From Spirochaetota bacterium (GTDB taxonomy: Bacteria; Spirochaetota; Leptospiria; Turneriellales; CBDBES01): a DNA stretch of 64,000 nt. The DNA lies in assembly GCA_965206985.1 (NCBI GenBank), contig CBDBLF010000022.1:197597-261596 (forward strand), written 5' to 3'. This document shows positions 27,920 through 55,566 of the stretch, piece after piece (the stretch's first letter is position 1; each line of letters opens with the position of its first letter). The notes under the pieces are model-generated. The model ran no database searches, had not been told where the DNA came from, and saw only the letters and a list, made by a program, of their open reading frames with translations. The position numbers and the translations under genes are program-made.

Positions 27920-28143
27920 AAACTGGAAAACGCAGTTTTAGCAACTTTGTACCTGAATGAGGGTGAATACCCAAAAATTATTGTCAATCAAAAGACCATC
28001 CAAATAGATAGAGGTTTTCAGTTGCACATGAGATGGGTCACCTCTTTTGGAGAATGGGTTCAGCACCCATACCCATAACAGAAGGAGCAACAGCTGTTCC
28101 ACGTACTTATCTAAAAATAAAAACGTTCAAATTTAGGGCTTAG
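27920..28143 (+). pseudogene. ImmA/IrrE (M78)-like metallopeptidase remnant
   Basis: Reconstruction LENAVLATLYLNEGEYPKIIVNQ[fs]KDHPNR*RFSVAHEMGHLFW needs one 1-bp insertion and passes one TAG; AHEMGH at 28024-28041. Confidence 0.6.
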
Positions 28144-28154
28144 CATATAACCAC

Positions 28155-29252
28155 TTAGGGATGGAGAATAGGATTGTACCCCCCTACGACCATTGGCATC
28201 TTTTGAAATAAATAGTCCAGTCGAAACGGTGGTAAATTTAATATTTGTTTGTCAATAGTTGTGCTTTCCTCTCGGATCAGCTGCCAGGGCGATTTATTCT
28301 CTTTGTAAGAATTTTTTCTTATTGAATTGAACATCAATAGATAGGAGCCAGCTTTGTTGAGAAAGTCTTCTCTTGAATTATACGTTTCATTCAGGTAAAG
28401 GTGATCCTCAATCAATCTATGAGTCGTTTCAACATCAGACTGCCAAGTATGCGCTCCAGCAGGGATCGTCTGGTGTGGCACACCATAACTGGCTAATACT
28501 TTTGTAAACTCCGAATCTCCTTTTTTATTCCAAGCACCAATAAACTCTGAGCCATTATCTGTTTGCCCTCTCGTATTATTTTTCTTTAAATCAACCCCTG
28601 ATTTTACAAGATGATCTAAAATTACCTCCATAAACAGACAAGAGTATGCCATATTATACTCATCTGCAAAAGCTAGAAATTGTAAGCCAGAAAAAACTTC
28701 TCTGAAGGTATATTGATATTTCGGTACAATATTTTCCTGAATATAAGGCCAAAGCTCAGGAATATCGTATAAATGCTTCGTATCTACGTCAAATTGCTTA
28801 AATAAACCCCATAATTTCTTAATTTCACGCAAATTTTGCTTCGTTTTATGTTTTCTACGCTTTTTTTTCAAGAGTGCTTGCTCCCTCCACGCTCTGCGAA
28901 TGGCCTTGACACTCAAGTCTAGTTGGTAAACATTCTTCAGTTCCTGAGCACCAAAGCCTCGACGTTTCTTTTTAAGAAAGCAAACATAAGCCTTTTCAAA
29001 GTCTGTGATTGCATGTGGTGAGTAGTGTGGAGCGTGGCTCTTGTCTTCCAAGCCAACGTATTTCTCTGATTCAAACCTACGAAACCACTTTTTTACTGTT
29101 TTTACAGTCGTTTTAAACATTCTGGCTGTTGGCTTGAAACCATGCTTCTTGGCATAATGAACCATTTGCATTCTGTATAACTTTTTGTCTTTACTATTTC
29201 GCATTACTGCCGAATACCTGTTTAGACAAATAACCTGAGAAGGGTGCTTCAT
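28155..29252 (-). CDS. IS481-like DDE transposase
   Basis: N-terminal HTH, DVDTKHL, QTDNGSEF, VETTH; same protein as the copy at 37710. Confidence 0.92.
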   Translation of the reverse strand: MKHPSQVICLNRYSAVMRNSKDKKLYRMQMVHYAKKHGFKPTARMFKTTVKTVKKWFRRFESEKYVGLEDKSHAPHYSPHAITDFEKAYVCFLKKKRRGFGAQELKNVYQLDLSVKAIRRAWREQALLKKKRRKHKTKQNLREIKKLWGLFKQFDVDTKHLYDIPELWPYIQENIVPKYQYTFREVFSGLQFLAFADEYNMAYSCLFMEVILDHLVKSGVDLKKNNTRGQTDNGSEFIGAWNKKGDSEFTKVLASYGVPHQTIPAGAHTWQSDVETTHRLIEDHLYLNETYNSREDFLNKAGSYLLMFNSIRKNSYKENKSPWQLIREESTTIDKQILNLPPFRLDYLFQKMPMVVGGYNPILHP

Positions 29253-29434
29253 TAGGAACCTCTGTTTTATTTGATGATTTAACGTCGGCCTTTTGATGCA
29301 CCTTTTTTAGGAAAATGTCTTTCACTTGCTCTACCAGTAAACCCAAGCCTTTTGAACCAAATAACTTGATTTGAACCAATTCTGAACCAACTAATGATGG
29401 TCGTAGGGGGGTACTATCATCCTTCTCTCTCCCA
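28157..29434 (-). mobile_element. IS481/IS1202-like insertion sequence, copy 1 (1278 bp)
   Basis: Imperfect terminal IRs sharing GTACCCCCCTACGACCA; 15-bp TSD AGCATATAACCACTT at 28142-28156 and 29435-29449. Confidence 0.93.
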
Positions 29435-29453
29435 AGCATATAACCACTTTTTG

Positions 29454-29481
29454 TTGACTTTCTGTACCGTTACTGTACAGT
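29454..29481 (+). promoter_or_regulatory. Putative sigma70 promoter of GLUG gene 1
   Basis: TTGACT-16 bp-TACAGT; same hexamers and spacing precede genes 2 and 3. Confidence 0.5.
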
Positions 29482-29523
29482 GGTTCTGGGTGGCTTTCTA
29501 AGCTAGCCCAGAAGGGGTTTATT

Positions 29524-31830
29524 ATGTATATAAAGAACAAGACAATCATTCAATCATTCAATCATTCAATCATTCAATCATTCAATCATTCAATCATTCA
29601 ATCATTCAATCATTCAATCATTCAATCATTCAATCATTCAATCATTCAATCATTCAATCATTCAATCATTCAATCATTCAATCATTCAATGAGGTTACTA
29701 TGGGTATTGGCTTTTGTCGCCTTGGGCTTTTTATTTCAATGCGGTAAAAGCGACGATTCTGTCAAAGACGGTGATATTGCTAAAGACGACGACCCTCCGA
29801 CCAATGTAAAGCTTAGTGCTTCAGAGGTCACCTTCAACGATGTGAGTGGGGCAGTGGGTGCCACCTACACGGTTTCGGTGTCACGCCCACCAGCAGCAGA
29901 GAAAACAGTAGAGGTAACCCTAACCTCTACCAATCCATTGCTTGAGGTATCCCCAACAGAGGTTACGTTTACGCCTACGAATGCGAGCCCCCAGACGATT
30001 ACCGTAAAAAGAGCAAATGATGCCAATGATATGATTATGGCCGAGATAACAGATGTCATAACCCATGACATCGCCACGGGCACGTCGCATGACGCGGAGT
30101 TCACTGAATTTGCCATGATGAGAAGCATGGTCAACGTAACGGTGACGCTAACACCAAGTAAGGTAGAGTTGAGCACTCCAGAGGTCACCTTCAACGACGT
30201 GGGTGGGGCAGTGGGTGCCACCTACACGATTTCAGTGTCACGCCCACCAGCAGCAGAGAAAACAGTAGAGATAACCCTAACTTCCACAAATGAATTTCTT
30301 GCGGTATCCCCAAATGTGGTTACGTTTACGTCTACGAATGCGACCCCCCAGACGATTACCGTAAAAAGAGCAAATGATGCAGATGATATTATTACGACCG
30401 AGATGACAGGTGCCATAGAGCATGCCATAACCAGGGGCACCGAGCTCACTGAATTTGCCATGATGAAGAGCACGGTCAACGTGACGGTAACGCCGTACAC
30501 CCCCGATTCTGATGATGACGGGCTCATTGAAATATGGACTGCCACAATGCTAGACAACATGCGATATAATCTGGCGGGCACGAGTTATAAAACCTTGGCA
30601 ACAGATCCAGGTAATTCCTCTGGTTGCCCAGACGCAGGTTGCAACGGCTACGAGCTCATGGCCAACGTCAATTTATTACCCCTGCTTGATGTAAACGGTA
30701 ACGGCGTGATTGACATGATGACAAAGACTGTTGCGGGCAAAGACCATATGGTGATTGATGTAAACAAAGATACCGGCTGGGTTCCGGTGGGTGATAATGC
30801 AAACCGGTTTATGGGAACTTTTGAGGGTAACGGCCGCACCATCGCTAACTTGTGGGTAAATATTTCTTTTTCAGGCCAAGTCTATGCGGGTTTATTTGGT
30901 GCGACAGATGGAATGGCTGCAATTCGTAATGTGGGTGTTGTCTCTGGTGGTGTTTCTTCTTCTGCTTTTAATTCTGATTCTTCTGGTTCTGATTCTTCTT
31001 CTGGTGGTCTGGTGGGGCGATCTGATGATACTTTGACGATCACGAATAGCTACTTTTCTGGGAGTGGTGGTGTTTCTTCTTCTAGTTCTGATTCTTTTTC
31101 TGGTTCTGATTCTTCTTCCGGTGGTCTGGTGGGTTTTTCTGGTGATACTTTGACGATCACGAATAGCTACTTTTCTGGGAGTGGTGGTGTTTCTTCTTTT
31201 TCTTCTAATTCTGATTCTTCTGGTTCTTCTTCTTCTTCCGGTGGTCTGGTGGGGAGTTCTTCTTCTTTAATGATCACGAATAGCTACTTTTCTGGGAGTG
31301 ATGGTGTATCTTCTTCTTCTTCTTCTTCTGATTTGTCTTTTTCTTCTTCTGGTGGTCTGGTGGGTTTTTCTGATGATACTTTGACGATCACGAATGGCTA
31401 CTTTTCTGGGAGTGGTGGTGTTTCTTCTTCTGGTGGTTCTAATCCTGATTCTTTTTCTTATTCCGGTGGTCTGGTGGGTTCTGCTATTATTTTGACGATC
31501 GCGAATAGCTACTTTTCTGGGGGTGGTGGTGTTTCTTCTTCTTCTGGTTTTGATTTTTCTTCCGGTGGTCTGGTGGGTTTTTCTTTTGGTCCTGTGATGA
31601 TGGATAGTTATTGGAACACCGACCAGATTTCCGAAGCAGGGGGTACAGGTGCTGTGGGGCTTACGCTCACTCAACTCAAAGCAACGAGTGGCACCTATCC
31701 TAATTTATTAGGCGACGCGTGGGACCTAGGCACTGACCAGCAACTACCCGCCGTCAAACGATGCATCCTTGATATGGCGGGGATGGGGACTTGTGCATCG
31801 TATGCCGCACTGCTCGGCGGGCAACGGTAA
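29524..31830 (+). CDS. GLUG-repeat surface lipoprotein 1 (two Ig-like repeats, six GGLVG repeats)
   Basis: Lipobox FLFQC; two ~120-aa beta-rich repeats; PDSDDDGLIEI...GCNGYELM...FEGNGRTIANL core; Ser-linked GGLVG repeats. Alternative start at 29689. Confidence 0.8.
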   Translation: MYIKNKTIIQSFNHSIIQSFNHSIIQSFNHSIIQSFNHSIIQSFNHSIIQSFNHSMRLLWVLAFVALGFLFQCGKSDDSVKDGDIAKDDDPPTNVKLSASEVTFNDVSGAVGATYTVSVSRPPAAEKTVEVTLTSTNPLLEVSPTEVTFTPTNASPQTITVKRANDANDMIMAEITDVITHDIATGTSHDAEFTEFAMMRSMVNVTVTLTPSKVELSTPEVTFNDVGGAVGATYTISVSRPPAAEKTVEITLTSTNEFLAVSPNVVTFTSTNATPQTITVKRANDADDIITTEMTGAIEHAITRGTELTEFAMMKSTVNVTVTPYTPDSDDDGLIEIWTATMLDNMRYNLAGTSYKTLATDPGNSSGCPDAGCNGYELMANVNLLPLLDVNGNGVIDMMTKTVAGKDHMVIDVNKDTGWVPVGDNANRFMGTFEGNGRTIANLWVNISFSGQVYAGLFGATDGMAAIRNVGVVSGGVSSSAFNSDSSGSDSSSGGLVGRSDDTLTITNSYFSGSGGVSSSSSDSFSGSDSSSGGLVGFSGDTLTITNSYFSGSGGVSSFSSNSDSSGSSSSSGGLVGSSSSLMITNSYFSGSDGVSSSSSSSDLSFSSSGGLVGFSDDTLTITNGYFSGSGGVSSSGGSNPDSFSYSGGLVGSAIILTIANSYFSGGGGVSSSSGFDFSSGGLVGFSFGPVMMDSYWNTDQISEAGGTGAVGLTLTQLKATSGTYPNLLGDAWDLGTDQQLPAVKRCILDMAGMGTCASYAALLGGQR
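29543..29690 (+). repeat. Octanucleotide simple sequence repeat (CAATCATT)18 plus CAAT
   Basis: 18 perfect units at 29543-29686, inside the ORF starting at 29524. Confidence 0.98.
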
Positions 31831-31867
31831 CCTTAGCGGTCACAAACAGCTTGGGTGATCCTGAGAG

Positions 31868-32305
31868 TGGGTGCGGTGAGGCTTACACTCGCCCAACTCA
31901 AAGCAACGAGTGGCACCTTTCCTGATTTAGGCGACGCGTGGGACCTAGGCACTGATCAGCAACTCCCCGCGGTCAAACGATGCATCCTTGATATGGCGGG
32001 GATGGGGACTTGTGCATCGTATGCCGCACTGCTCGGCGGGCAACGGTAACCTTAGCGGCCGCAAACAGCTTGGGTGATTCTGAGAGTGGGTGCGGTGAGG
32101 CTTACACTCGCCCAACTCAAAGCAACGAGTGGCACCTTTCCTGATTTAGGCGACGCGTGGGACCTAGGCACTGACCAGCAACTCCCCGCGGTCAGACGAT
32201 GCATCCTTGATATGGCGGGGATGGGGACTTGTGCATCGTATGCCGCACTGCTCGGCGGGCAACGGTAACCTTAGCGGTCACAAACAGCTTGGGTGGTCCT
32301 GAGAG
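31868..32305 (+). repeat. Two tandem 219-bp orphan copies of a GLUG-gene 3' end plus downstream spacer
   Basis: TGGGTG junctions at 31868, 32087, 32306; each unit encodes AVRLTLAQLKATSGTFPDLGDAW...LLGGQR*. Confidence 0.93.
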
Positions 32306-32320
32306 TGGGTGTCTACTCAG
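32299..32320 (+). other. Conserved imperfect hairpin CTGAGAGTGGGTGTCTACTCAG downstream of GLUG genes (also 34663-34684, 43512-43533)
   Basis: GAGTGG/CTACTC stem with GTGT loop; identical in three places; no U-tract, so not a clear intrinsic terminator. Confidence 0.55.
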
Positions 32321-32389
32321 ACGCTTTCAACTCCTGCACTCCTAACAGCCACCAAGAGCGAACGAGTATACTAATCAATTCGTGGGACC

Positions 32390-32440
32390 ATGTTCGCAGG
32401 TTTCACTTGCGTAATCAGTATTATGTTTTCAAAGTTCTAA
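32390..32440 (+). pseudogene. C-terminal 16-codon remnant of the Bdr-like gene
   Basis: MFAGFTCVISIMFSKF* matches the end of the protein at 40908-41300. Confidence 0.88.
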
Positions 32441-32574
32441 TTGAGTGAACGATGGTAGTATTTCTAGCGAGAACATAGCGTAGCTCCTGAATACGGTGAG
32501 TGCTCCATTCGATAATAGTGGACAATTAGCCTTCAGAAATTGACATAAATATCTAACATTTTCGTATATAGTGG

Positions 32575-32602
32575 TTGACTTAGTACGTATATCATCTATA
32601 GT
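32575..32602 (+). promoter_or_regulatory. Putative sigma70 promoter of GLUG gene 2
   Basis: TTGACT-16 bp-TATAGT, followed by GGGGAG SD before the GTG at 32653. Confidence 0.55.
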
Positions 32603-32652
32603 GTGCTTCACGAATAATCACAAACTGATTAGAATGGAGGGGAGTTAAGTTT

Positions 32653-34632
32653 GTGAGTATAAATATTCGAATGTATGGAGCACTCAATAAAATGGTAAGA
32701 GGTATATTATTAATATTCGCCTTGGGCTTTTTATTTCAATGCGGTAAAAGCGACGATTCTTCCAAAGATGTCGACCCTCCTCCGACCAATGTAAAGCTCA
32801 GCACTTCAGAGATCACCTTCAAAGATGTGGATGGGGCAGTGGGTGCCACCTACACGATTTCGGTGTCACGCCCACCAGCAGCAGAGAAAACAGTAGAGGT
32901 AACCCTAATCTCCGCCAATTCATTGCTTGTGGTATCCCCAACAGTGGTCAGGTTTACGTCTATGAATGTGAGCCCCCAGACGATTACCGTAAAAAGAGCA
33001 AATGATGCCAATGATATTATTATGGCCGAGATAATAGGTGAGATAAACCATGACATAGCCACGGGCACGTCGTATGACGCGGAGTTCACTGAATTTGCCA
33101 TGATGAAAAGCACGGTCAACGTGATGGTAACGCCAACACTAAGCAATGTAAAGCTCAGCACTCCAGAGGTCACCTTCAACGATGTGGATGGGGCAACGGG
33201 TGCCACCTACACGATTTTGGTGTCACGCCCACCATCAGCAGGAAAAACAGTAGAGGTAACCCTAACCTCCGCCAATTCATTGCTTGTGGTATCCCCAACA
33301 AAGGTTACGTTTACGCCTACGAATGCGAGCCCCCAGACGATTACCGTAAAAAGAGCAAATGATGCCAATGATATTATTATGGCCGAGATAATAGGTGAGA
33401 TAAACCATGACATAGCCACGGGCACGTCGTATGACGCGGAGTTCACTGAATTTGCCATGATGAAAAGCATGGTCAACGTGAGGGTAACGCCGTACATCCC
33501 CGATTCTGACGGCGATGGGCTCATTGAAATATGGAATGCCACAATGCTAAACAACATGCGTTATGATTTGGCGGGCACGAGCTACAAGACCTCGGCAACA
33601 GATCCAGGTGATTCCTCTGGTTGCCCAATCGGTGGTTGTAACGGCTACGAGCTCATGGTCAACATCGATTTATTACCCCTACTTGATGCGAACACGAACG
33701 GCCAAATTGACACGACAACAAAGACTATTGCGAATCAAGTGCATACGGTGATTGATGTAAACAAAGATACCGGCTGGGTTCCGGTGGGTGATAATGTAAA
33801 CCAATTTACGGGCACTTTCGAGGGTAACGGCCGCACCATCGCTAACTTGTGGGTGAATATTTCTTCTTCAGGTGATGCCCATGCGGGTTTATTTGGTCGG
33901 ACTGGTGGAACGATTGCAATTCGTAATGTGGGTGTTGTCTCTGGTAGTGTTTTTTCTTCTTCTTCTGCTTCTGCTTTTTCTTATTCTGGTGGTCTGGTGG
34001 GTCAATCTACTTCTTTGACGATCACGAATAGTTATTTCAGCGGTAAGGGTAGTGTTTTTTCTTCTTCTTCTTCTTCTTCTTCTGCTGCTTCTGCTTTTTC
34101 TGGTGGTCTGGTGGGTCAATCTACTTCTTTGACGATCGCGAATAGCTACTTTTCTGGGAGTGGTGGTGTTTCTTCCTCTTCTTCTTCTTATTCTGCTCTT
34201 TCTTTTTCTGGTGGTCTGGTGGGTCAATCTACTTCTTTGACGATCGCGAATAGCTACTTTTCTGGGAGTGGTGGTGTTTCTTCTTCTTCTTCTTCTTCTT
34301 CGCTTTCTTATTCCGGTGGTCTGGTGGGGCGTGTTTCTTCTTCTTCTTCTTTGACGATCACGAATAGCTATTGGAACACCGACGCAAATCAATCAATAGA
34401 TGGGTCACCCCAGAATCCCAAGCGAGCGCGGGGTAATTCTACGAGTGACCCCATGGGTGCGGTGGGGCTTACGCTAACCGAACTGAAAGAGACGAGTGGC
34501 ACCTATCCTAATTTATTGGGCGACGCGTGGGACCTAGGCACTGACCAGCAACTCCCCGCCGTCAAACGATGCATCCTTGATATGGCGGGGGTCTGTGCAT
34601 CGTATGGCGCGCTGCTCGACGGGCAACGGTAA
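32653..34632 (+). CDS. GLUG-repeat surface lipoprotein 2 (four GGLVG repeats)
   Basis: Paralog of 29524-31830; lipobox FLFQC. Confidence 0.82.
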   Translation: MSINIRMYGALNKMVRGILLIFALGFLFQCGKSDDSSKDVDPPPTNVKLSTSEITFKDVDGAVGATYTISVSRPPAAEKTVEVTLISANSLLVVSPTVVRFTSMNVSPQTITVKRANDANDIIMAEIIGEINHDIATGTSYDAEFTEFAMMKSTVNVMVTPTLSNVKLSTPEVTFNDVDGATGATYTILVSRPPSAGKTVEVTLTSANSLLVVSPTKVTFTPTNASPQTITVKRANDANDIIMAEIIGEINHDIATGTSYDAEFTEFAMMKSMVNVRVTPYIPDSDGDGLIEIWNATMLNNMRYDLAGTSYKTSATDPGDSSGCPIGGCNGYELMVNIDLLPLLDANTNGQIDTTTKTIANQVHTVIDVNKDTGWVPVGDNVNQFTGTFEGNGRTIANLWVNISSSGDAHAGLFGRTGGTIAIRNVGVVSGSVFSSSSASAFSYSGGLVGQSTSLTITNSYFSGKGSVFSSSSSSSSAASAFSGGLVGQSTSLTIANSYFSGSGGVSSSSSSYSALSFSGGLVGQSTSLTIANSYFSGSGGVSSSSSSSSLSYSGGLVGRVSSSSSLTITNSYWNTDANQSIDGSPQNPKRARGNSTSDPMGAVGLTLTELKETSGTYPNLLGDAWDLGTDQQLPAVKRCILDMAGVCASYGALLDGQR

Positions 34633-34759
34633 CCTTAGCGGTTGCAAACAGCTTGGGTGATCCTGAGAGTGGGTGTCTACTCAGACGCTTTCAACTTTTG
34701 CACTCCTAACAGCTACCAAGGGCGAACGAGTGTACAATCGATTAGTGGTCGTGTCATAT

Positions 34760-35524
34760 TTAATCAAAGTTTCTATTTGCGATGAATAATTCTTGTATAG
34801 ACCACTTATGATTCGTCATTTCTGTAGCCATTGCTGTGGTGATTTGAATTGGTTTTCCTCCCTCATACTCAGCTAGACTTGAATGTGGAAGGCAGAAATT
34901 GTAATAATTAGCAACAAAAGAATTATGCCCCTGCATATATTTGAATTTTTTTGAAAAACCCTGACTTTTACGCTCTATTCTATGATTGTGTTGGCGAAGA
35001 GTCAAATTATTCCTTTCTACAGCAAAGGTGTTCATCTGATGACTTACTGAAGAGTTTGCAATATATTCATCTAGTAGCTTTTGATCACCAAAGATTAGAG
35101 ATTTGTCAACTTCCTTACATCTCCCTTTTTCTATTCTCTTAATTATTTGCCCATAACATAGAGATTTGGGTGATTGAAGCTTTCTAGTCATTGAGTCAAA
35201 TTTACCATAAACTGAAAGAATGGCATCACTATATCCCTCATATCCATCAGAGGTAATCAAGAATTTATCTTCCCTCTTTGGCTTACTTCTTGTTTTTACC
35301 TTGGTCAGTAACTTTCTAGCATTCACTGAGGTCCTCTTGCCTGTTATATGCGCTAAAATGAGCTTTTCTACAGGCAATACTGCAGTAAAAGTCCAGATAT
35401 CCCCTATTTCATCACTTAATCGCTCAGTCTCTGATAGATTGTATTGTTTTTTAAAGACAAAACCCCAATGCTCGTCTAATTGAATTTCATTGAAAGACAG
35501 GTTTTTGTATATATTTTTTTTCAA
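34760..35524 (-). CDS. IS1-family transposase, InsB-like DDE part
   Basis: IQLDEHWGFV, SDGYEGY, VERNNLTLRQH. Confidence 0.88.
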   Translation of the reverse strand: MKKNIYKNLSFNEIQLDEHWGFVFKKQYNLSETERLSDEIGDIWTFTAVLPVEKLILAHITGKRTSVNARKLLTKVKTRSKPKREDKFLITSDGYEGYSDAILSVYGKFDSMTRKLQSPKSLCYGQIIKRIEKGRCKEVDKSLIFGDQKLLDEYIANSSVSHQMNTFAVERNNLTLRQHNHRIERKSQGFSKKFKYMQGHNSFVANYYNFCLPHSSLAEYEGGKPIQITTAMATEMTNHKWSIQELFIANRNFD

Positions 35525-35864
35525 CTTTTAGTGAATCTTCACCTGCTGCTTTAACCCAAGCAAGAACTGTATCCTTGCTGATACCAAAGACTCTTCCGGT
35601 AGCTCTAATGCCACAGCCCTCAACTGTGTTTTGTAATACCCGAGTAATGGTTTCTTTGCTTTTCTTGCGACGAAAAAAAATAGTGCCTTTATTCTCTGAA
35701 AAGCATCTACCACAAGCGGTGCACTTTAAATAGGCTATTTGTTTGTACTTACCAGACATATAAGCAAAGCGCACATTTCCTTCATTTACCTTATGATACT
35801 TATGGCAGTCTGTATTTTGACAGCTAAAACCACTTGTATCAAAGGTATATTTTCTTTTGTTCAT
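35487..35864 (-). CDS. IS1-family transposase, InsA-like zinc finger/HTH part
   Basis: CQNTDC, CTACGRCF, GCGIRATGRVFGISKDTV. Confidence 0.88.
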   Translation of the reverse strand: MNKRKYTFDTSGFSCQNTDCHKYHKVNEGNVRFAYMSGKYKQIAYLKCTACGRCFSENKGTIFFRRKKSKETITRVLQNTVEGCGIRATGRVFGISKDTVLAWVKAAGEDSLKVEKKYIQKPVFQ

Positions 35865-35943
35865 AATGAGACATAACCTTAATTTAAGGGAGATAAGTCA
35901 ATTCCTTTTTTAATTGGAAACTTTGATTAAATATGACACGACC

Positions 35944-36054
35944 ATAGAGTCTAGGAAAAAACTTGTTTTGAGCAATATTTAACATAAAAAAAGACCAAAA
36001 GCATGCCAAAACCGACCCAAACCATAAAATCGAGTGTCTTTTTCTATTTCTCAT
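35944..36054 (-). pseudogene. Small/N-terminal ORF cut by IS1 copy 1; paralog of 8282-8407
   Basis: MRNRKRHSILWFGSVLACFWSFFMLNIAQNKFFPRLY runs into the IS end. Confidence 0.5.
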
Positions 36055-36058
36055 CTTT

Positions 36059-36092
36059 GTTCTTAGTTCTTAGTTCTTAGTTCTTAGTTCTT
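36059..36092 (+). repeat. (GTTCTTA)4 heptamer repeat just upstream of the ORF at 36054
   Basis: Directly visible in sequence. Confidence 0.9.
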
Positions 36093-37463: not shown

Positions 37464-37527
37464 TAATTAGAACACATGGATTCTTTAATTCATTGGTATA
37501 CCTGTCAAGTAAGATTTTACTTTAGTT

Positions 37528-38805
37528 TGGGAGAGAGAAGGATGATAGTACCCCCCTACGACCATCATTAGTTGGTTCAGAATTGGTTCAAATCAAGTTA
37601 TTTGGTTCAAAAGGCTTGGGTTTACTGGTAGAGCAAGTGAAAGACATTTTCCTAAAAAAGGTGCATCAAAAGGCCGACGTTAAATCATCAAATAAAACAG
37701 AGGTTCCTAATGAAGCACCCTTCTCAGGTTATTTGTCTAAACAGGTATTCGGCAGTAATGCGAAATAGTAAAGACAAAAAGTTATACAGAATGCAAATGG
37801 TTCATTATGCCAAGAAGCATGGTTTCAAGCCAACAGCCAGAATGTTTAAAACGACTGTAAAAACAGTAAAAAAGTGGTTTCGTAGGTTTGAATCAGAGAA
37901 ATACGTTGGCTTGGAAGACAAGAGCCACGCTCCACACTACTCACCACATGCAATCACAGACTTTGAAAAGGCTTATGTTTGCTTTCTTAAAAAGAAACGT
38001 CGAGGCTTTGGTGCTCAGGAACTGAAGAATGTTTACCAACTAGACTTGAGTGTCAAGGCCATTCGCAGAGCGTGGAGGGAGCAAGCACTCTTGAAAAAAA
38101 AGCGTAGAAAACATAAAACGAAGCAAAATTTGCGTGAAATTAAGAAATTATGGGGTTTATTTAAGCAATTTGACGTAGATACGAAGCATTTATACGATAT
38201 TCCTGAGCTTTGGCCTTATATTCAGGAAAATATTGTACCGAAATATCAATATACCTTCAGAGAAGTTTTTTCTGGCTTACAATTTCTAGCTTTTGCAGAT
38301 GAGTATAATATGGCATACTCTTGTCTGTTTATGGAGGTAATTTTAGATCATCTTGTAAAATCAGGGGTTGATTTAAAGAAAAATAATACGAGAGGGCAAA
38401 CAGATAATGGCTCAGAGTTTATTGGTGCTTGGAATAAAAAAGGAGATTCGGAGTTTACAAAAGTATTAGCCAGTTATGGTGTGCCACACCAGACGATCCC
38501 TGCTGGAGCGCATACTTGGCAGTCTGATGTTGAAACGACTCATAGATTGATTGAGGATCACCTTTACCTGAATGAAACGTATAATTCAAGAGAAGACTTT
38601 CTCAACAAAGCTGGCTCCTATCTATTGATGTTCAATTCAATAAGAAAAAATTCTTACAAAGAGAATAAATCGCCCTGGCAGCTGATCCGAGAGGAAAGCA
38701 CAACTATTGACAAACAAATATTAAATTTACCACCGTTTCGACTGGACTATTTATTTCAAAAGATGCCAATGGTCGTAGGGGGGTACAATCCTATTCTCCA
38801 TCCCT
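37528..38805 (+). mobile_element. IS481/IS1202-like element, copy 2
   Basis: 1278 bp; 15-bp TSD GATTTTACTTTAGTT at 37513-37527 and 38806-38820. Confidence 0.93.
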
Positions 38806-39673: not shown

Positions 39674-40870
39674 GGTCGTGTCATATTTAATCAAAGTTTC
39701 TATTTGCGATGAATAATTCTTGTATAGACCACTTATGATTCGTCATTTCTGTAGCCATTGCTGGGGTGATTTGAATTGGTTTTCCTCCCTCATACTCAGC
39801 TAGACTTGAATGTGGAAGGCAGAAATTGTAATAATTAGCAACAAAAGAATTATGTCCCTGCATATATTTGAATTTTTTTGAAAAACCCTGACTTTTACGC
39901 TCTATTCTATGATTGTGTTGGCGAAGAGTCAAATTATTCCTTTCTACAGCAAAGGTGTTCATCTGATGACTTACTGAAGAGTTTGCAATATATTCATCTA
40001 GTAGCTTTTGATCACCAAAGATTAGAGATTTGTCAACTTCCTTACATCTCCCTTTTTCTATTCTCTTAATTATTTGCCCATAACATAGAGATTTGGGTGA
40101 TTGAAGCTTTCTAGTCATTGAGTCAAATTTACCATAAACTGAAAGAATGGCATCACTATATCCCTCATATCCATCAGAGGTAATCAAGAATTTATCTTCC
40201 CTCTTTGGCTTACTTCTTGTTTTTACCTTGGTCAGTAACTTTCTAGCATTCACTGAGGTCCTCTTGCCTGTTATATGCGCTAAAATGAGCTTTTCTACAG
40301 GCAATACTGCAGTAAAAGTCCAGATATCCCCTATTTCATCACTTAATCGCTCAGTCTCTGATAGATTGTATTGTTTTTTAAAGACAAAACCCCAATGCTC
40401 GTCTAATTGAATTTCATTGAAAGACAGGTTTTTGTATATATTTTTTTTCAACTTTTAGTGAATCTTCACCTGCTGCTTTAACCCAAGCAAGAACTGTATC
40501 CTTGCTGATACCAAAGACTCTTCCGGTAGCTCTAATGCCACAGCCCTCAACTGTGTTTTGTAATACCCGAGTAATGGTTTCTTTGCTTTTCTTGCGACGA
40601 AAAAAAATAGTGCCTTTATTCTCTGAAAAGCATCTACCACAAGCGGTGCACTTTAAATAGGCTATTTGTTTGTACTTACCAGACATATAAGCAAAGCGCA
40701 CATTTCCTTCATTTACCTTATGATACTTATGGCAGTCTGTATTTTGACAGCTAAAACCACTTGTATCAAAGGTATATTTTCTTTTGTTCATAATGAGACA
40801 TAACCTTAATTTAAGAGAGATAAGTCAATTCCTTTTTTAATTGGAAACTTTGATTAAATATGACACGACC
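39674..40870 (-). mobile_element. IS1-family element, copy 2 (ORFs 40414-40791 and 39687-40451)
   Basis: 1197 bp, same terminal IRs as copy 1. Confidence 0.93.
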
Positions 40871-40907: not shown

Positions 40908-41300
40908 TTGGGGTTATCTTCACCCGTGTCTACATCAATTATTGAGTCACAAAAGCCACTTTCTGAGGGTAGTCTTGAATCAGAAAGTTCTCAAAAATTA
41001 CTTTTTTATTTGCTTGAAAAAATGGACAAGCTTGACACAAAGTTTGACGATCGTATTGACAAGCTTGAAGTAAAGCTTGACGATCGTATTGATAAGCTTG
41101 AAGTAAGGCTTGACGATCGTATTGATAAGCTTGACAAAAAACTTGATTTTCAGGTTAGCAAGCTTGATGGTCGTATTGATAAGCTTGATGGTCGTATTGA
41201 TAAGCTTGATGCAAAGCTTGATAGTCGTTTTTTATGGATGATTGGAATCATGTTCGCAGGCTTCACTTGCGTAATCAGCATCATGTTTTCAAAGTTCTAA
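40908..41300 (+). CDS. Bdr-like/DUF1640-like coiled-coil repeat protein with C-terminal TM helix
   Basis: Tandem DRIDKLE/DGRIDKL repeats (33-bp and 21-bp units) followed by FLWMIGIMFAGFTCVISIMF. Confidence 0.65.
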   Translation: MGLSSPVSTSIIESQKPLSEGSLESESSQKLLFYLLEKMDKLDTKFDDRIDKLEVKLDDRIDKLEVRLDDRIDKLDKKLDFQVSKLDGRIDKLDGRIDKLDAKLDSRFLWMIGIMFAGFTCVISIMFSKF

Positions 41301-41511: not shown

Positions 41512-43482
41512 GTGAGTATAAATATTAGAATGTATGGAGTGCTCAATAAAATGTTAAGAGGTATATTATTAATATTCGCCTTGGGCTTTTTATTTCAATG
41601 CGGTAAAAACGACGATTTTGTCAAAGACGGTGACTCTGTCAAAGATGACGACCCTTCTTTGGTCACCTTAAAGCTCAGTACTCCAGAGGTCACCCTCAAC
41701 GATGTGGATGGGGCAACGGGTGTCACCTACACGATTTCGGTTTCACGCCCACCATCAGCAGAGAAAACAATAGAGGTAAACCTAACCTCCGTCAATCCAT
41801 TGCTTGAGGTATCCCCAGAGCGGGTTATGTTTACGCCTACGAATGTGAGCCCCCAGACGATTACCGTGAAAAGAGCAAATGGTGCGGTTGCTATTATTGA
41901 GACCGAGATAACAGGTGAGATAAGTCATGTCATAACTACTGGCACCAGGTTCACTGAATTTGCCATAATGAATGACACGGTCAACGTGACGGTAAGACCA
42001 ACCAATGTAAACCTCAGTACTCCAGAGGTCACCTTCAGCGACGTGAGTGGGGCAGTGGGTGCCACCTACACGATTTCGGTGTCACGCCCACCAGCAGCAG
42101 AGAAAACAGTAGAGGTAACCCTAACCTCCGCCAATTCATCGCTTGTGGTATCCCCAACAGTGGTCAGGTTTACGTCTATGAATGCACGCCCCCAGACGAT
42201 TACCGTAAAAAGAGCAAATGATGCAAATGATATTATTACGACCGAGATAACAGGTGCCATAAATCATGTCATGACCACGGGTGCGTCGTATGACGCGGAG
42301 TTCACTGAATTTGCCATGATGAATGATACGGTCAACGTAAGGGTAACGCCGTATATCCCTGATTCTGACGGTGATGGGCTCATTGAAATATGGGCTGCCG
42401 CAATGCTAGACAACATGCGATATGATCTGGCGGGCACGAGTTATAAAACCTCGGCAATGGATGCAGGTAACGATGCAGGTTGCCCAGCAGATGGTTGTAA
42501 CGGCTACGAGCTCATGGCCAACATTGATTTATTACCCCTGCTTGATGCGAATGGTAACGGCGAAATTGACATGATGCCAAAGATTGTTGCGGATGTTATG
42601 CATACGGTGATTGATGTAGGCTCAGGCAAAGATGAAAGTTGGGTTCCGGTGGGTGATAATTTAAACCGGTTTACGGGCACTTTCGAGGGTAACGGCCGCA
42701 CCATCGCTAACTTGTGGGTGAATATTCCTTCTTCAGGTAATGTCGTCTATGCGGGTTTATTTGGTGTGACTGGTGACTCAGCCGAGATACGCAATGTGGG
42801 AGTTATCTCTGGTGGTGTTTCTTCTTCTCTTTCTTCTTTTTCTTATTCCGGCGGTCTGGTGGGGCGTGTTTTTACTTCTTCTTCTTTGACGATCACGAAT
42901 AGTTATTTCAGCAGCGAAGGTGGTGCTTCTTCTTCTTCTTCTGGTTTTTCTTCTTATTCCGGTGGTCTGGTGGGGTCTTCTGATGCCACTTTGACGATCA
43001 TGAATAGCTACTTTTCTGGGAGTGGTGGTGTTTCTTCTTCTTCTTCTTCTTCTTCTCTTTCTGCTGCTTCTGGCGGTCTGGTGGGTGAATCTATTGGTAC
43101 TTTGACGATCATGAATAGTTATTTCAGCGGTGAAGGTGGTATTTCTTCTTCTGCTGCTTCTGGCGGTCTGGTGGGTGAATCTATTGGTACTTTGACGATC
43201 ATGAATAGTTATTGGAACACCGACGCACCTCAATCAACAGACGGTGGCATGACACCCCAGAGTCCCAAGCGAGCGCGGGGTAATGCTACGGTCGACCCCA
43301 TGGGTGCGGTGAGGCTTACACTCGCCCAACTCAAAGCAACGAGTGGCACCTTTCCTGATTTAGGCGACGCGTGGGCCCTAGGCACTGACCAGCAACTCCC
43401 CGCGGTCAAACGATGCATCCTTGATATGGCGGGGATGGGGACTTGTGCATCGTATGCCGCACTGCTCGGCGGGCAACGGTAA
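41512..43482 (+). CDS. GLUG-repeat surface lipoprotein 3 (four GGLVG repeats)
   Basis: Paralog of genes 1 and 2; lipobox FLFQC. Confidence 0.82.
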   Translation: MSINIRMYGVLNKMLRGILLIFALGFLFQCGKNDDFVKDGDSVKDDDPSLVTLKLSTPEVTLNDVDGATGVTYTISVSRPPSAEKTIEVNLTSVNPLLEVSPERVMFTPTNVSPQTITVKRANGAVAIIETEITGEISHVITTGTRFTEFAIMNDTVNVTVRPTNVNLSTPEVTFSDVSGAVGATYTISVSRPPAAEKTVEVTLTSANSSLVVSPTVVRFTSMNARPQTITVKRANDANDIITTEITGAINHVMTTGASYDAEFTEFAMMNDTVNVRVTPYIPDSDGDGLIEIWAAAMLDNMRYDLAGTSYKTSAMDAGNDAGCPADGCNGYELMANIDLLPLLDANGNGEIDMMPKIVADVMHTVIDVGSGKDESWVPVGDNLNRFTGTFEGNGRTIANLWVNIPSSGNVVYAGLFGVTGDSAEIRNVGVISGGVSSSLSSFSYSGGLVGRVFTSSSLTITNSYFSSEGGASSSSSGFSSYSGGLVGSSDATLTIMNSYFSGSGGVSSSSSSSSLSAASGGLVGESIGTLTIMNSYFSGEGGISSSAASGGLVGESIGTLTIMNSYWNTDAPQSTDGGMTPQSPKRARGNATVDPMGAVRLTLAQLKATSGTFPDLGDAWALGTDQQLPAVKRCILDMAGMGTCASYAALLGGQR

Positions 43483-43666
43483 CCTTAGCGGTCACAAACA
43501 GCTGGGTGATCCTGAGAGTGGGTGTCTACTCAGAAACTTTCAACTTCTGCACTCCTAACAGCCACCAAGGGCGAGGTTCCTACGACACATAAGGGCGAGC
43601 GAGATTTAAGTGTAAAACGATATCTCCCCTTTACACGAAGTCCAGTGATACTTGTGAACAAATGAT

Positions 43667-46600
43667 TCATGGGTGAAATTGGTTTATTAGAAAAGGTAGT
43701 TGGGCTATGCTTGCATTGATCGCTTTAGGCCGAGTAAACGAATGAATATCTTGGTTTGCCCAATCGTGAGTGTTCAACGGAGATGAACTTCTTGATGAAG
43801 AGTTTTGCGAGGAAATGCGGGAGAAAAAACTTGTTGTCACACCAGCGTATCCTTGATGATGGTTAGGGGCGTTTGATCTGTAATGGAAGGTATAATAATA
43901 CCCCGCAAATATTTTGATTGGAAACCGATATAAAAAAGCTGATTGAATATTTAATTGAAGCCCTGCCGTACCTTGTAGGTTGTCTAGTGTTATTCCGACT
44001 GCATTGTTTTCACCTGAAAATCTTTTTATAAAGTTATAAGCAATAGATTTTCCACTACCGGAAGCGAAATACGCATCAAACCATATATCTCTGATTAGAA
44101 ATGGGGATATCTTATAAAAACCACTATCTGGTTGCCAAACAGGGAAACTATACATAATCCCAGTAGCCACTTGATATTCAAAATCTGCAAGTCTGGAGGA
44201 CGAGTTTACTCCCGATGCTACAAACGTGAGCCTCCAGACATTATTTTTGAAGAATCCGGGAAGGTATTCATGGTAAAGTAAAAATGTTTGATAGGAAAAA
44301 CTGCGAACATTGTGGAGACCATGATTCACACTTGCAGAAATACGAATGTTCCGGCCATCCTCAGGGCTGATTGACTTTCTATAATTATCAGTAGTGTCAT
44401 ATTCATATGATAGGGTTGGAACAGCCCACCAAAGTGAACCCCCTTGAGGGTAGTTTTTGAAGAACCCACTAGAAAGTTTTGCTTCCCAAAAATTGTATGT
44501 CAAGCCCAATTGATGACTTGTCTGAAAATAAATAAAAGGGAGACTTACACTCCCTGTAATTCTTTGAGAAGTTGATTCATGTGTAACATCTCCATAAGTG
44601 ATTTGGTTTGTATAATAAGAAATACTCAAATGCGGCCAAAAGCCAGTATACGAATAGCTTGCTTGTAAAACAATTTGCTGTCGTTCTATAGAGTGCACTC
44701 CTGATAATTCGTAAAGGTTCAATTCTAAGGCATCCGAAGAGAATATTGATAATCCATAAGAAACACTGTTTTCTGTATTGAATAGGAGAATAGGAGGGAG
44801 CCAAAATAGTGGTGCAATGGAAGCAAAAGGAGTGTATTCTTGAGAAGGTAGATCATCTTTTTTAGTCTTTTGCTCGCTTTCACTATTTTGATTGCCTTGG
44901 AATGCCTTGAGTGAAAACTTTTTAGAGTTTGCAGACACAGTCTTGAGGCTTTTTTTTGGATAACTTAGTAGGGCTTGGTTGAACCCCGTCGAGTTGTAAG
45001 TGGTGGCTGCGAGAAGTTTGCCATTTGGCGAGATATCGGGGTAGAAAAAACCACCAACAACATTGGTCAGTTGTGATATTTTTTTGCTTTGTATATTATA
45101 CGAAAAAAGGTTATACACGCCCTTTGAGCGATCAGAACTAAAAATGAGACGGTTGCCACCTGGGTGCCAGCTCGGTTGCAGGTGATTGAAATCACCTGAG
45201 GTGATTTGTGAAACCGATATTTTTTCTCGTTCTTTTTTTAGCCCTAGAATAGCAATTTGACTAAAGCTACTTTTATCTTTGAAGCTAAAGGCAATTTTCG
45301 TGCCGTCGGGCGAAAAACGGGTAAAGGCAAACTGTACTTCGGATGCATCCACGAGCTTTTCAATTTTTCTGAGATTAGGTTCGCTCAGAAAAATTGAACA
45401 CCTGCTTGCTTCATTTTGTACGAATACGATTTTTTTTTGAATTTTACTATAATCAACATAATGTGCTCTCAACCCATGACTGAGTTGTTTCAGCTTGGAA
45501 TTATCTACGTCAAACCGAAAAATATCATAATATCTCGAAAAATGGTGATAGACCTCTAGGTCAGAAATGAACACTTTGCCTTTTTCTCCAACAGAAAGAA
45601 AGTTGGTATCGTTGACATCTGAGATTGCATTAGATATTAATTTTTTTTTTTTGAACCATGATGATTGAGTCTCGTTGGGGACCTCGTATCGAAATAGACG
45701 CATTTCTGTGTCATTGGCATCTTGAATATAATAGAGAAACTTCCCTGATGGGTCGAACCTCCCCTGCCCCGAATGAAAACCCGTTGTATTTAACAGCCGA
45801 TAATTGGTGAGAGGTTGTTTTTTGATTTCCTCAATTTTTTCTCTCTGTTTTTTTTCTTCTTGCAACCGCCATTCATCCCATAACGAATTAAGGTCTTTCT
45901 CATAACCATAAATAGCTTCCATATTATCACTCGCTTGATATGGCCAAAAATTCTTTGCTTGCTTTTCATAAACAGAGGTGAAAGAATTCTCTCCATATGT
46001 TTTATTTAAATATTGAATAAATCTACCTCCATAAATATACTGATTGTTTATTGGCCACTCCCTATGAAAAAAATGAGATACGTCATTGATGGAATCAAAA
46101 CTATCATCAGCGACTTCATTTCTCATAATCATGTCGCCGTAGGTACTATTGTTGCGACCATAATTGCTCAGTGATTCTTGGTGAACGGCAAAGCCTTCAA
46201 GCACCCAAGCCGGCTGAAGTATATTGATAAAGTATATACGGCCAAATATGTACTTGAGTACCTTTGCTAACCCATAGGTCATGTCTAAAGTTAAAGTGTG
46301 CGTATATTCGTGCGTTAAAAGAAGGTCAAGCCAGTCATCAAAACGTTCTAACGCTGTGTCCATTTCTGGCCTTACGGGAAATAATACCACCTTGTTATAA
46401 GGGAAGGGTGTAGCGTATCCATTAGCCTGGTCTGTTTGGTCTACCAAAACAATGTCAGTTCGTAATGCAGGCTCCCACTTAATTTTTAAGGCAAGTTTAG
46501 CATGAATCACCTCAGCAAGCTTTGCCGTTTTCTGAGCCATCCCCTCAAGACCTTGGTGGTAATGTACCCAGAAATGTTCTGTTTTGATTGATCTCCACCG

Positions 46601-53661: not shown

Positions 53662-53782
53662 ATGGTCAAAGTACACACCATTTTTGGTGTACGTGTTAGC
53701 GTGAAAAGCACTTACGGGCATGGGAGTGAGTAAATACTCAAAAAGTGGCTAGATTGGAAACAACAAAACGCAGACTAGATTG

Positions 53783-54979: not shown

Positions 54980-55566
54980 CTAGATTGAATTAAATCGTTT
55001 TTTACACCCACTTTTTAAGCTTTACAGGTCATGTTGAACAGATTTACCCGAAGCAGATGTTGAAAAAAAAAGCAACTAATTGTTATATTGGCCTCATCAA
55101 GAGACTCAGTGCTCACAATATTTGCTTTTATTCTACTCATCATTTTTTAATTATTTTTTGCGTAGAGACTTCTTAACTCCCTCGAGAGAGATTCAGCAGA
55201 GCTTCAGTGGAGGTTGGGAAGAAACTAGGGTCTAGTTCGGGAGAAAGCCTGCCCAGAAAAAAAAATCCAAAAAATTGAACTGTCCACTAAAGCGAGTCAG
55301 GGCCACTACCTCGTATTATTATAAGATACGAGTTCTGATAAACGAAAGTCTCGTAAAATTTTTTTACTTGAATCAATCATTCTTTTCAAAAAAAAATCAT
55401 AACTTTTACCTCGCCATTCAGAAATTTCATAGACCGGCGAGAGTGTTTGTCTTTTCATATTTTCCGAAAAATTTTCTAGTAAATGCTCAAATGCAACATT
55501 AATCTTGTAAAGATACGAACCTGTAGTTTGCAAGTAACGTGTGTCAATGATATCTTTTTGAAGCAC

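What the first reader, a model, noticed from the sequence alone, without database searches (positions are those of the whole stretch)
29524..29745. (CAATCATT)18 between start codon and signal peptide: probable ON/OFF phase-variation switch
Seen: the ATG at 29524 has an SD-like GAAGGGG just upstream. Eighteen perfect 8-bp units (144 bp) follow and keep the frame through to MRLLWVLAFVALGFLFQC. Only unit counts divisible by 3 preserve the frame. The second ATG (29689) has no SD because only repeat DNA precedes it. Genes 2 and 3 lack the repeat. Established: slipped-strand repeats in signal-peptide coding regions switch surface proteins, e.g. Neisseria opa CTCTT. Inference: gene 1 is phase variable and currently ON. 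An octamer unit is unusually long for such a switch.
Basis: partly seen in the sequence, partly recalled or inferred. Interest (0 to 1): 0.75.

Follow-up and report, generated by a model that had tools for sequence, protein, structure and literature searches.

The report
Octamer repeat switch in lipoprotein leader
A perfect 18-copy run of an 8-base unit lies between a ribosome-binding-site-backed start codon and the export signal of a surface lipoprotein gene in an uncultured-type Leptospira relative, and sister genes carry the same run with 9 and about 11 copies in different reading frames, so it looks like a slippage-driven expression switch, though switching itself was not observed.

Summary
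(CAATCATT)18 plus CAAT, with no mismatch, occupies 29543-29690. It joins ATG 29524 (SD-like GAAGGGG 6 nt upstream) in frame to MRLLWVLAFVALGFLFQC, a lipoprotein-type signal peptide.

The gene belongs to a family of more than 20 paralogous lipoproteins (two Ig-like domains plus a GLUG beta-solenoid) in a deep Leptospirales lineage.

New evidence:
- The same array recurs in the family. P0009, on the same contig, has about 11 units fused in frame and no second ATG.
- A metagenome contig (L118) carries a relative with 9 perfect units. There the upstream ORF stops at a TGA overlapping the second ATG (ATGA).
- Non-expanded relatives have one or two degenerate units (CAATCGTT).
- The strong SD sits at the upstream start in all subfamilies. 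ATG 29689 has none.
- A conserved promoter-like site lies upstream of ATG1, so the array is transcribed and acts at translation.

Most likely this is a slipped-strand translational contingency switch, a new member of the opa/licA kind with an unusual 8-bp unit.

Not shown: repeat variation at one locus, which start is used, and whether the current state is ON. The ATGA overlap may make two of the three frames productive. The source genome and its reads could not be retrieved.

The parts
28157..29435 (-). Context: IS481-like insertion sequence (transposase ORF 28155-29252) with 14-bp target duplications GCATATAACCACTT at 28143-28156 and 29436-29449. It ends 88 bp upstream of ATG1 and about 19 bp upstream of the -35-like hexamer.
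   Evidence: 100% identical copies at 37527-38805 and 55567-56845; duplications read; Pfam HTH_28/LZ_Tnp_IS481.
29454..29481 (+). Promoter-like site TTGACT-16 nt-TACAGT, 43 nt upstream of ATG1. The array is therefore downstream of the likely transcription start.
   Evidence: Consensus scan. The same arrangement is conserved in L118-B (TTGATT..TATAGT) and in genes 2 and 3 (TTGACT-16-TATAGT) in alignment A1. Function is inferred.
29511..29517 (+). Shine-Dalgarno-like GAAGGGG, 6 nt before ATG1.
   Evidence: Duplex energy is -8.4 kcal/mol, among the strongest in the window. Equivalent motifs precede the upstream starts of genes 2 and 3 (-9.8, -8.6), L118-B (-8.9) and L124 (-11.5).
29524..29542 (+). 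ATG1 and pre-repeat leader ATGTATATAAAGAACAAGA (MYIKNK.., Lys-rich like a signal-peptide n-region), 19 nt.
   Evidence: Homologous leaders: L118-A ATGTATAAAAGAACAAGA (18 nt) and P0009 MYKRK.
29543..29690 (+). (CAATCATT)18 + CAAT, perfect. It encodes (IIQSFNHS)n in every + frame and has a TGA in every - frame.
   Evidence: Unstructured as RNA and as single-stranded DNA.
29689..29692 (+). ATGA: second ATG (29689-29691, start of the public gene call) overlapping TGA (29690-29692). That TGA is the stop of the leader ORF when n = 1 mod 3 (16, 19, 22).
   Evidence: The same CAATGAGG junction is in L118-A and L118-B. No SD (+2.8 kcal/mol).
29689..29742 (+). Signal peptide MRLLWVLAFVALGFLFQC with lipobox-like FLFQ|C (Cys codon 29740-29742).
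   Evidence: In the 42-sequence family alignment L15 is invariant and F14, F16, C18 are conserved in at least 90%. h-region mean hydropathy is 2.7, against 0.0 for the repeat peptide.
29745..29747 (+). TAA that ends the leader ORF when n = 2 mod 3 (17, 20). That ORF reads 17 codons past ATG2 (..NEVTMGIGFCRLGLFISMR*).
29740..31830 (+). Mature lipoprotein: two tandem Ig-like/Calx-beta-like domains, a linker domain, a Ser-rich GLUG-repeat beta-solenoid and a C-terminal domain.
   Evidence: AlphaFold model, mean pLDDT 77, solenoid blocks mostly 84-97. Foldseek hits to tandem beta-sandwich domains such as NCX1 CBD12 and intimin D0-D1. Pfam GLUG 19.4 bits for gene 1, just under the 20.5 cut-off, and 23.0 for gene 2. 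No PDB or NCBIfam sequence match.
32653..34632 (+). Paralog gene 2, no repeat. SD GGAGGGG precedes GTG 32653. Leader MSINIRMYGALNK precedes MVRGILLIFALGFLFQC.
41512..43482 (+). Paralog gene 3, no repeat, same leader layout as gene 2.

Best explanation
The octamer array is a hypermutable simple-sequence repeat inside the translated leader of a surface-lipoprotein gene. Transcription starts at the conserved promoter-like site upstream. Ribosomes load at the SD-backed ATG 29524 and read through the array.

Slipped-strand mispairing adds or removes 8-bp units, and each step shifts the ATG1 frame relative to the signal peptide. With n = 0 mod 3 (now 18) the leader is fused to MRLLWVL...FLFQC, and the repeat peptide would be removed with the signal peptide when signal peptidase II cuts before the lipobox Cys. 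The mature protein would then be the same at every productive length. With n = 2 mod 3 the leader ORF runs over ATG2 and stops 17 codons later, which should silence the gene. With n = 1 mod 3 it stops at the TGA overlapping ATG2.

Shown: the anatomy, the frames, the SD distribution, and recurrence of the array with different lengths and frames in the family. Inferred: slippage at this locus, use of ATG1, export of the long-leader precursor, and the ON/OFF value of each frame.
For: A perfect 18.5-unit array is the signature of recent or ongoing slippage.

The array recurs in the family with different unit numbers:
- P0009, from a contig of the same length (544,409 nt) as the window's own proteins, reads MYKRKIQSFNHS...SIRLLWVLVF. 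That is about 11 units, fused, with Ile in place of the second Met, so only the upstream ATG can start it.
- L118-A has exactly 9 perfect units after an 18-nt leader. Its ATG1 ORF MYKRTR(QSFNHSII)3Q* ends at the ATGA.
- The proto-repeat is visible in non-expanded relatives. L118-B has CAATCGTT TAATCGTT. P0044's sequence is consistent with one unit fewer, with the L118-B ATG1-frame peptide (LCMKEQGNR ~ LCIKEQGNR) fused to the signal peptide.

The SD is at the upstream start, not at the internal Met, in subfamilies A, B and C. The upstream extension is conserved as peptide (MCENxxYW in more than 10 proteins, MSxNxRM.G..NK in 8).

The promoter-like site lies upstream of ATG1 and is conserved among paralogs, so the repeat does not set promoter spacing.

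The repeat sits in the part of the precursor expected to be discarded on maturation, as in Neisseria opa (PMC3960869).

Other short repeats lie at start regions of lipoprotein genes in this clade: (AACTAAG)5.6 ending 5 nt before ATG 36054 on the - strand, and G9 lying 9 nt before the ATG of P0062 in L123.
Against: No same-locus variation was seen. The source assembly, its reads and the other 12 or more MRLLWVL paralogs' 5' regions could not be retrieved. The three arrays are in different, diverged genes (at most 76% identity).

Being in frame has a 1-in-3 chance, and P0009 was only noticed because it is in frame.

The gene caller behind the protein database starts gene 1 at ATG2. Weak-SD starts look common in this genome, and the array is an unstructured A/U-rich stretch just before ATG2, so independent initiation at ATG2 cannot be excluded.

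A 55-residue polar extension ahead of the h-region might impair export.

No leader ORF from the source genome was present as a separate protein in the database.
Confidence: 0.55

Rival explanations
1. Neutral leader microsatellite. Translation of the lipoprotein starts at ATG 29689 regardless of what happens upstream. The array is a fast-evolving but functionally silent VNTR in the 5' leader, and its present in-frame state is chance.
For: The database gene call and 12 paralogs start at MRLLWVL. ATG2 begins a signal peptide of standard length. Weak-SD starts appear common. The A/U-rich array before ATG2 is unstructured. The in-frame state has prior probability 1/3. (CAATCATT)n of 3 or more units occurs at many places in unrelated genomes without obvious gene-start association.
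Against: P0009 lacks ATG2 yet keeps a 679-aa ORF fused to the upstream ATG through the array. The strongest SD in the region is at ATG1 and is conserved there across paralogs and subfamilies. Ribosomes starting at ATG1 must traverse the array and, in one frame, run over ATG2, so complete neutrality is hard to achieve.
Confidence: 0.22
2. Length-dependent, not frame-dependent, modulation. The array acts as a spacer whose length tunes mRNA stability, standby ribosome binding or the distance from the SD and ATG1 to ATG2, giving graded rather than ON/OFF output.
For: The array is transcribed and structure-free. Octa-, hepta- and nonanucleotide repeats upstream of hmw genes are proposed to modulate expression, potentially mediating phase variation (PMC2651432).
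Against: Those precedents are proposed to act in promoter regions. Here the promoter-like site is upstream of the array and an SD-backed ORF reads through it. No promoter-like hexamers were found inside the array.
Confidence: 0.1
3. Assembly artefact. The unit count, and hence the frame, is mis-assembled, or the array is chimeric.
For: Tandem arrays are error-prone in assemblies, and no reads are available.
Against: The same unit in the same position occurs in an independent assembly (L118, 9 units) and in a second gene of the source genome (P0009). The window resolves three 100%-identical 1.3-kb IS copies, which suggests long reads (inference). An error in count would change the state, not the existence of the array.
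Confidence: 0.04

Closest known systems
Neisseria opa genes: (CTCTT)n in the leader-peptide coding region
   Same: The unit length is not a multiple of 3. The repeat lies inside the region encoding the cleaved leader of a surface protein. It is a multigene family in which members carry different repeat numbers and frames. The switch is translational through slipped-strand mispairing (PMC3960869).
   Different: The unit is 8 bp rather than 5 bp. The repeat here encodes a polar extension ahead of the hydrophobic core, not part of the core. The products are lipoproteins with Ig-like and GLUG solenoid domains, unrelated to Opa beta-barrels. An internal ATG begins a complete signal peptide after the repeat. 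Switching is not demonstrated here.
Haemophilus influenzae licA (lic1): (CAAT)n near the 5' end with several initiation codons
   Same: A 5' intragenic repeat aligns or misaligns start codons with the ORF. More than one frame can be productive (alpha/beta and gamma starts give 2 of 3 frames ON; PMC2212159).
   Different: In licA all alternative starts lie upstream of the repeat. Here the alternative start lies downstream and overlaps a stop codon (ATGA), so any rescue would be by reinitiation or independent initiation. The unit is an octamer. The product is a cytoplasmic enzyme there and an exported lipoprotein here.
H. influenzae biogroup aegyptius hmw1A/hmw2A: (GCATCATC)12-15
   Same: An octanucleotide unit with a comparable copy number, associated with surface adhesin genes (PMC3309571, PMC2651432).
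   Different: That repeat is 200-213 nt upstream of the gene, in the putative promoter region, not in a reading frame. Its proposed effect is on expression level, not frame.
Spirochaete and mollicute variable surface (lipo)proteins: Treponema pallidum tpr poly-G tracts, Mycoplasma Vlp/Vaa/P78 homopolymer switches (from my own knowledge, not tested here)
   Same: Repeat-driven variation of surface (lipo)protein families in wall-less or spirochaetal bacteria.
   Different: Those use homopolymers or promoter-spacer tracts. None, to my knowledge, uses an octamer in the signal-peptide n-region. Two literature searches combining Leptospira with 'phase variation' plus 'simple sequence repeats', and with 'slipped-strand mispairing', listed no paper whose title or abstract concerns SSR phase variation in Leptospira.

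Membership tests
SSR-mediated translational phase-variable (contingency) locus | Long, perfect tandem repeat whose unit length is not a multiple of 3 | tested here: met
   18.5 perfect copies of an 8-bp unit.
SSR-mediated translational phase-variable (contingency) locus | Repeat lies between a usable start codon and the body of the ORF, so unit changes shift the frame | tested here: met
   SD-backed ATG1, an ORF continuous through the array, and frames computed for n = 14-22. Actual start-codon use is not testable here.
SSR-mediated translational phase-variable (contingency) locus | Repeat number varies at the same locus among cells or isolates | not testable with these tools
   No reads were available and the source genome was not retrievable. 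The only evidence is variation among diverged family genes: 18, about 11 and 9 units.
SSR-mediated translational phase-variable (contingency) locus | Expression switches reversibly with repeat number | not testable with these tools
   Needs reporter fusions or colony immunoblots.
Opa-type leader-peptide repeat switch | Repeat encodes part of the cleaved signal peptide of an exported surface protein in a multigene family | tested here: met
   The array precedes the h-region and lipobox. At least 2 array-bearing members are in the source genome and 1 in L118. Signal-peptide cleavage is inferred.
Opa-type leader-peptide repeat switch | Homology to Opa outer-membrane beta-barrel proteins | tested here: not met
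   Pfam gives only GLUG. The model shows Ig-like domains plus a solenoid. It resembles Opa in how it may work, not in descent.
Bacterial lipoprotein (signal peptidase II substrate) | Positively charged n-region, hydrophobic h-region, lipobox ending in an invariant Cys | tested here: inconclusive
   MR + LLWVLAFVALGF + LFQ|C. L15 is invariant and F14, F16, C18 are conserved in at least 90% of 42 relatives. Gln at -1 is not the E. coli consensus. Spirochaetal lipoboxes are looser (my own knowledge). No SPII predictor was available.
GLUG-motif proteins (Pfam PF07581) | Score at or above the Pfam gathering threshold (20.5 bits) | tested here: inconclusive
   Gene 1 scores 19.4 bits (below), gene 2 scores 23.0 (above), and gene 3 has no hit. 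Many paralogs carry precomputed PF07581 hits. GGLVG..LTITNSYFSG repeats fold as a solenoid.

The most novel reading that the evidence does not exclude
A three-state, family-wide contingency system in Leptospirales. Octamer slippage moves the leader ORF between three states: (i) fusion, giving a long-leader precursor from ATG1; (ii) termination at the UGA overlapping ATG2 (AUGA), with reinitiation giving the native short signal peptide; and (iii) read-through over ATG2, which silences the gene. The same device, together with poly-G and heptamer tracts at other start regions, would diversify a repertoire of more than 20 surface lipoproteins. This would be the first SSR phase variation described in Leptospirales and the first intragenic octamer switch.
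Probability: 0.2. Interest if true: 0.75.

Novelty: new member of a known kind. Interest (0 to 1): 0.55.

Why it matters
Two literature searches combining Leptospira with phase-variation terms listed no paper on SSR phase variation in Leptospira. A large, IS-rich, rapidly diverging lipoprotein family whose members carry slippage-prone tracts in their leaders would show that stochastic surface switching also operates in this lineage. Plausible selective agents are phages, grazers or hosts.

The system is also a clean natural test of two questions: how long an n-region a spirochaetal lipoprotein signal peptide tolerates, and whether an AUGA overlap can rescue one out-of-frame state.

In practice, it warns that the public gene call (start at 29689) probably misses the real start, and that unit counts in assemblies of this clade are states, not constants.

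Tried and rejected
- **Exact-protein look-ups.** P0001, P0003, P0009, P0012, P0044 and the IS transposase were all 'not on record', so the 5' regions of the other paralogs of the source genome stayed out of reach. The listing of cluster members gave no names or accessions.
- **Metagenome scan with the repeat/signal-peptide junction.** It gave 4 chance matches in unrelated DNA.
- **Protein search with the predicted out-of-frame leader peptide.** It returned almost only H. pylori repeat peptides and nothing from contigs of the source genome. OFF-state leader ORFs could be neither shown nor excluded.
- **Look-ups of ENA-only relatives.** These gave contigs L123-L127 without octamer arrays in their leaders.
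- **Promoter-spacer mechanism.** Rejected because the promoter-like site is upstream of ATG1 and none is inside the array.
- **Structured RNA or DNA element.** Rejected: the array does not fold, and Rfam found nothing but a tRNA.
- **Repeat as part of the neighbouring IS.** Rejected: the IS ends at 29435 with a 14-bp target duplication.
- **Literature search for the unit itself.** It returned only primer-type matches.
Full report
**1. Observation**

The sequence is as described. TRF reports a single array at 29543-29690 with period 8, 18.5 copies, 100% matches and no indels. All 18 full units are CAATCATT. Nothing comparable occurs elsewhere in the window or in shuffles.

ORF 29524-31830 (768 aa) begins MYIKNKT. 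It continues through (IIQSFNHS)6 and enters MRLLWVLAFVALGFLFQC|GKSDD. GAAGGGG lies 6 nt before ATG 29524.

Because 8 and 3 are coprime, the array encodes the same cyclic octapeptide and has no stop in any + frame. Every - frame contains TGA. The ATG1-to-ATG2 distance is 21+8n, which gives three states:
- n = 0 mod 3: the leader is fused to the signal peptide.
- n = 1 mod 3 (16, 19, 22): the leader ORF ends at the TGA overlapping ATG2 (ATGA, 29689-29692).
- n = 2 mod 3 (17, 20): the leader ORF runs 17 codons beyond ATG2, to TAA 29745-29747.

**2. The gene and the organism**

It is about 70% identical to Leptospira, Turneriella and Leptospiraceae MAG proteins. The window (GC about 37%) therefore comes from a deep Leptospirales lineage.

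The gene product has no PDB or NCBIfam sequence relative and only a borderline GLUG-motif Pfam hit. An AlphaFold model built on 42 relatives (mean pLDDT 77) shows three parts:
- two tandem beta-sandwich domains;
- a linker domain;
- a long beta-solenoid made of the Ser-rich GGLVG..LTITNSYFSG repeats.

Foldseek matches the N-terminal pair to tandem Ig-like/Calx-beta modules.

The protein search found about 120 relatives, more than 20 of them close paralogs. They sit on a few contigs (544,409, 734,679, 141,055, 261,316, 80,213 nt and others) that appear to be one assembly. The FLFxC motif is conserved across the family. This is a large family of predicted surface lipoproteins. Three members lie in the window.

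**3. Where translation starts**

The public gene call (P0001) starts at ATG 29689. Four lines of evidence favour ATG 29524 as a real start.

(a) SD strength. ATG1 has a duplex energy of -8.4 kcal/mol with a generic anti-SD, against +2.8 for ATG2. The homologous upstream starts of genes 2 and 3 have -9.8 and -8.6, while their internal Met codons have at most -5.9.

(b) The same layout in relatives. In L118-B the SD is at the upstream ATG (-8.9 against -2.8). In the sister subfamily (L124) it is -11.5 against -2.1.

(c) Conservation as peptide. The upstream extensions are conserved at the amino-acid level: MCENxxYW in more than 10 proteins and MSxNxRMxGxxNK in 8.

(d) P0009. It comes from a contig of the same length as the window's own proteins. 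It reads MYKRKIQSFNHSIIQSFNHSIIQSFNHSIIQSFNHSIRLLWVLVF. That is the same array (about 11 units), in frame, with Ile where ATG2 would be, so only the upstream ATG can serve.

Three points count against ATG1 as the only start. Weak-SD starts look common in this window. The array is an unstructured A/U-rich stretch directly before ATG2. ATG2 begins a signal peptide of ordinary length.

**4. Promoter and insertion sequence**

A TTGACT-16-TACAGT site at 29454-29481 is conserved in L118-B and in genes 2 and 3. The array is therefore transcribed and cannot act as a promoter spacer.

An IS481-like element (28157-29435) lies about 19 bp upstream of the -35 hexamer, flanked by 14-bp target duplications. 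It has 100%-identical copies elsewhere in the window and in L118. The repeat is not part of the IS.

**5. The array elsewhere**

The only outside DNA from close relatives is ENA contig L118.

- **L118-A.** The first gene on the contig has ATGTATAAAAGAACAAGA (18 nt, one base shorter than in the window), then exactly 9 perfect CAATCATT units, then CAATGAGG. Its ATG1 ORF, MYKRTR(QSFNHSII)3Q*, ends at the ATGA. The main ORF (570 aa) is at most 76% identical to any source-genome paralog.
- **L118-B (P0026).** The second gene has only two degenerate units (CAATCGTT TAATCGTT). Its SD-proximal ATG again ends at the ATGA.
- **P0044.** Its sequence is consistent with one unit fewer, with the L118-B ATG1-frame peptide (LCMKEQGNR ~ LCIKEQGNR) fused to the signal peptide.

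The family therefore shows a proto-repeat and its expansion to perfect arrays of 9, about 11 and 18 units. It also shows both fused and non-fused frames. That is the pattern expected of slippage-prone contingency repeats. It comes from different genes, not from one locus.

**6. Mechanism**

My best reading (confidence 0.55) is a slipped-strand translational switch. It resembles opa, where CTCTT repeats lie in the leader-peptide coding region (PMC3960869). It also resembles licA, where CAAT repeats align alternative start codons with the ORF (PMC2212159). The repeat sits in the part of the precursor expected to be discarded, so length changes within productive frames should not alter the mature protein.

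The AUGA overlap is conserved. L118-B is an intact gene in that configuration without a long array. Together these suggest the n = 1 mod 3 state may also yield protein, by reinitiation or by independent initiation at ATG2. Only the read-through state (n = 2 mod 3) would then be clearly OFF.

The rivals are:
- a neutral leader microsatellite (0.22);
- length-dependent tuning rather than frame-dependent switching (0.10);
- a mis-assembled unit count (0.04).

**7. Novelty**

The kind is known. Octanucleotide SSRs have been described upstream of hmw genes in H. influenzae biogroup aegyptius.

New here are the lineage, the protein family, an octamer inside a reading frame, and its position ahead of a complete signal peptide with an overlapping stop/start. 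Two searches combining Leptospira with phase-variation terms listed no paper on SSR phase variation in Leptospira. I file it as a new member of a known kind. The three-state, family-wide version is the most novel reading not excluded (probability about 0.2).

**8. Limits**

The genome-collection scan was exhausted by unrelated (CAATCATT)n loci. The source assembly was not retrievable by protein look-up. The metagenome scan gave only chance hits. The search for out-of-frame leader peptides returned only H. pylori repeat peptides. Same-locus variation, start-codon use and expression states remain untested.

Noticed in passing
window 36054-36092 (- strand): A heptamer array (AACTAAG)5.6 ends 5 nt upstream of ATG 36054 of a small ORF, MRNRKRHSILWFGSVLAC.., which has a lipobox-like VLAC. 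The ORF is cut off by an IS1-like insertion (about 34747-35944). This is a second short-unit repeat at the start region of a putative lipoprotein gene.
   Followed up: partly
L123 8913-8921 (ENA ERZ25069296, same sample as L118): A G9 homopolymer lies 9 nt upstream of the ATG of family lipoprotein P0062, at the position of the SD (gene 2 has GGAGGGG and gene 3 GCGGGGGAG there). It is a candidate poly-G contingency tract.
   Followed up: partly
window 31648-32311: A 219-bp unit is repeated 3.0 times at 95% identity. The last 60 or so codons plus the stop of gene 1 are duplicated twice downstream as 64-aa ORFs (31855-32049, 32074-32268). These are silent copies of the C-terminal domain.
   Followed up: no
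window 28157-29435, 37527-38805, 55567-56845, 63848-64000; L118 2143-3421: An IS481-like element with 14-bp target duplications has all copies 100% identical, including the one in an independent metagenome contig. In both gene 1 and L118-B it sits about 19-20 bp upstream of the -35-like hexamer of a family lipoprotein gene. This suggests either a target preference or co-duplication.
   Followed up: partly
window 34747-35944, 39674-40870, 53778-54984, 60054-61251 (a fifth 254-aa ORF of the same kind at 58461-59225 did not match in the DNA comparison): Four near-identical (at least 99.5%) IS1-like elements lie in 64 kb, which is a very IS-rich region.
   Followed up: partly
L001-L117 (genome collection), e.g. 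L002, L044, L055, L077 (Dyadobacter); L073, L116, L021 (H. pylori): (CAATCATT)n of 3 or more units is widespread, with several loci per genome in Dyadobacter and other Bacteroidota (3-15 units). In H. pylori it forms a hypervariable tract (4-11 perfect units counted by regex in L021, L116 and L073, plus degenerate variants) upstream of a DUF262 gene, and it is fused in frame in one strain (P0116). None of the 126 arrays seen was as long as the 18 units here.
   Followed up: partly
window 30000-34000 and 42000-44000: The three family genes have 47-48% GC against 35-42% for the rest of the window.
   Followed up: no
window 41025-41228; L123 10568-10753: Coding 33/21-bp tandem repeats (DKLExKLDDRI heptad-like) occur in a small membrane-anchored protein gene just upstream of gene 3. 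A remnant of its 3' end also precedes gene 2 (32380-32450).
   Followed up: no
L125 617-648; L127 7389-7422 and 9119-9151: (CAATTGA)4.6-4.9 heptamer arrays lie about 220 nt upstream of, and just downstream of, family lipoprotein genes in a related metagenome (ERZ26693861).
   Followed up: no
window 9241-9268: (CAAACC)4.7 lies 32 nt inside the 5' end of ORF 9209-10546. A hexamer has no frame effect.
   Followed up: no
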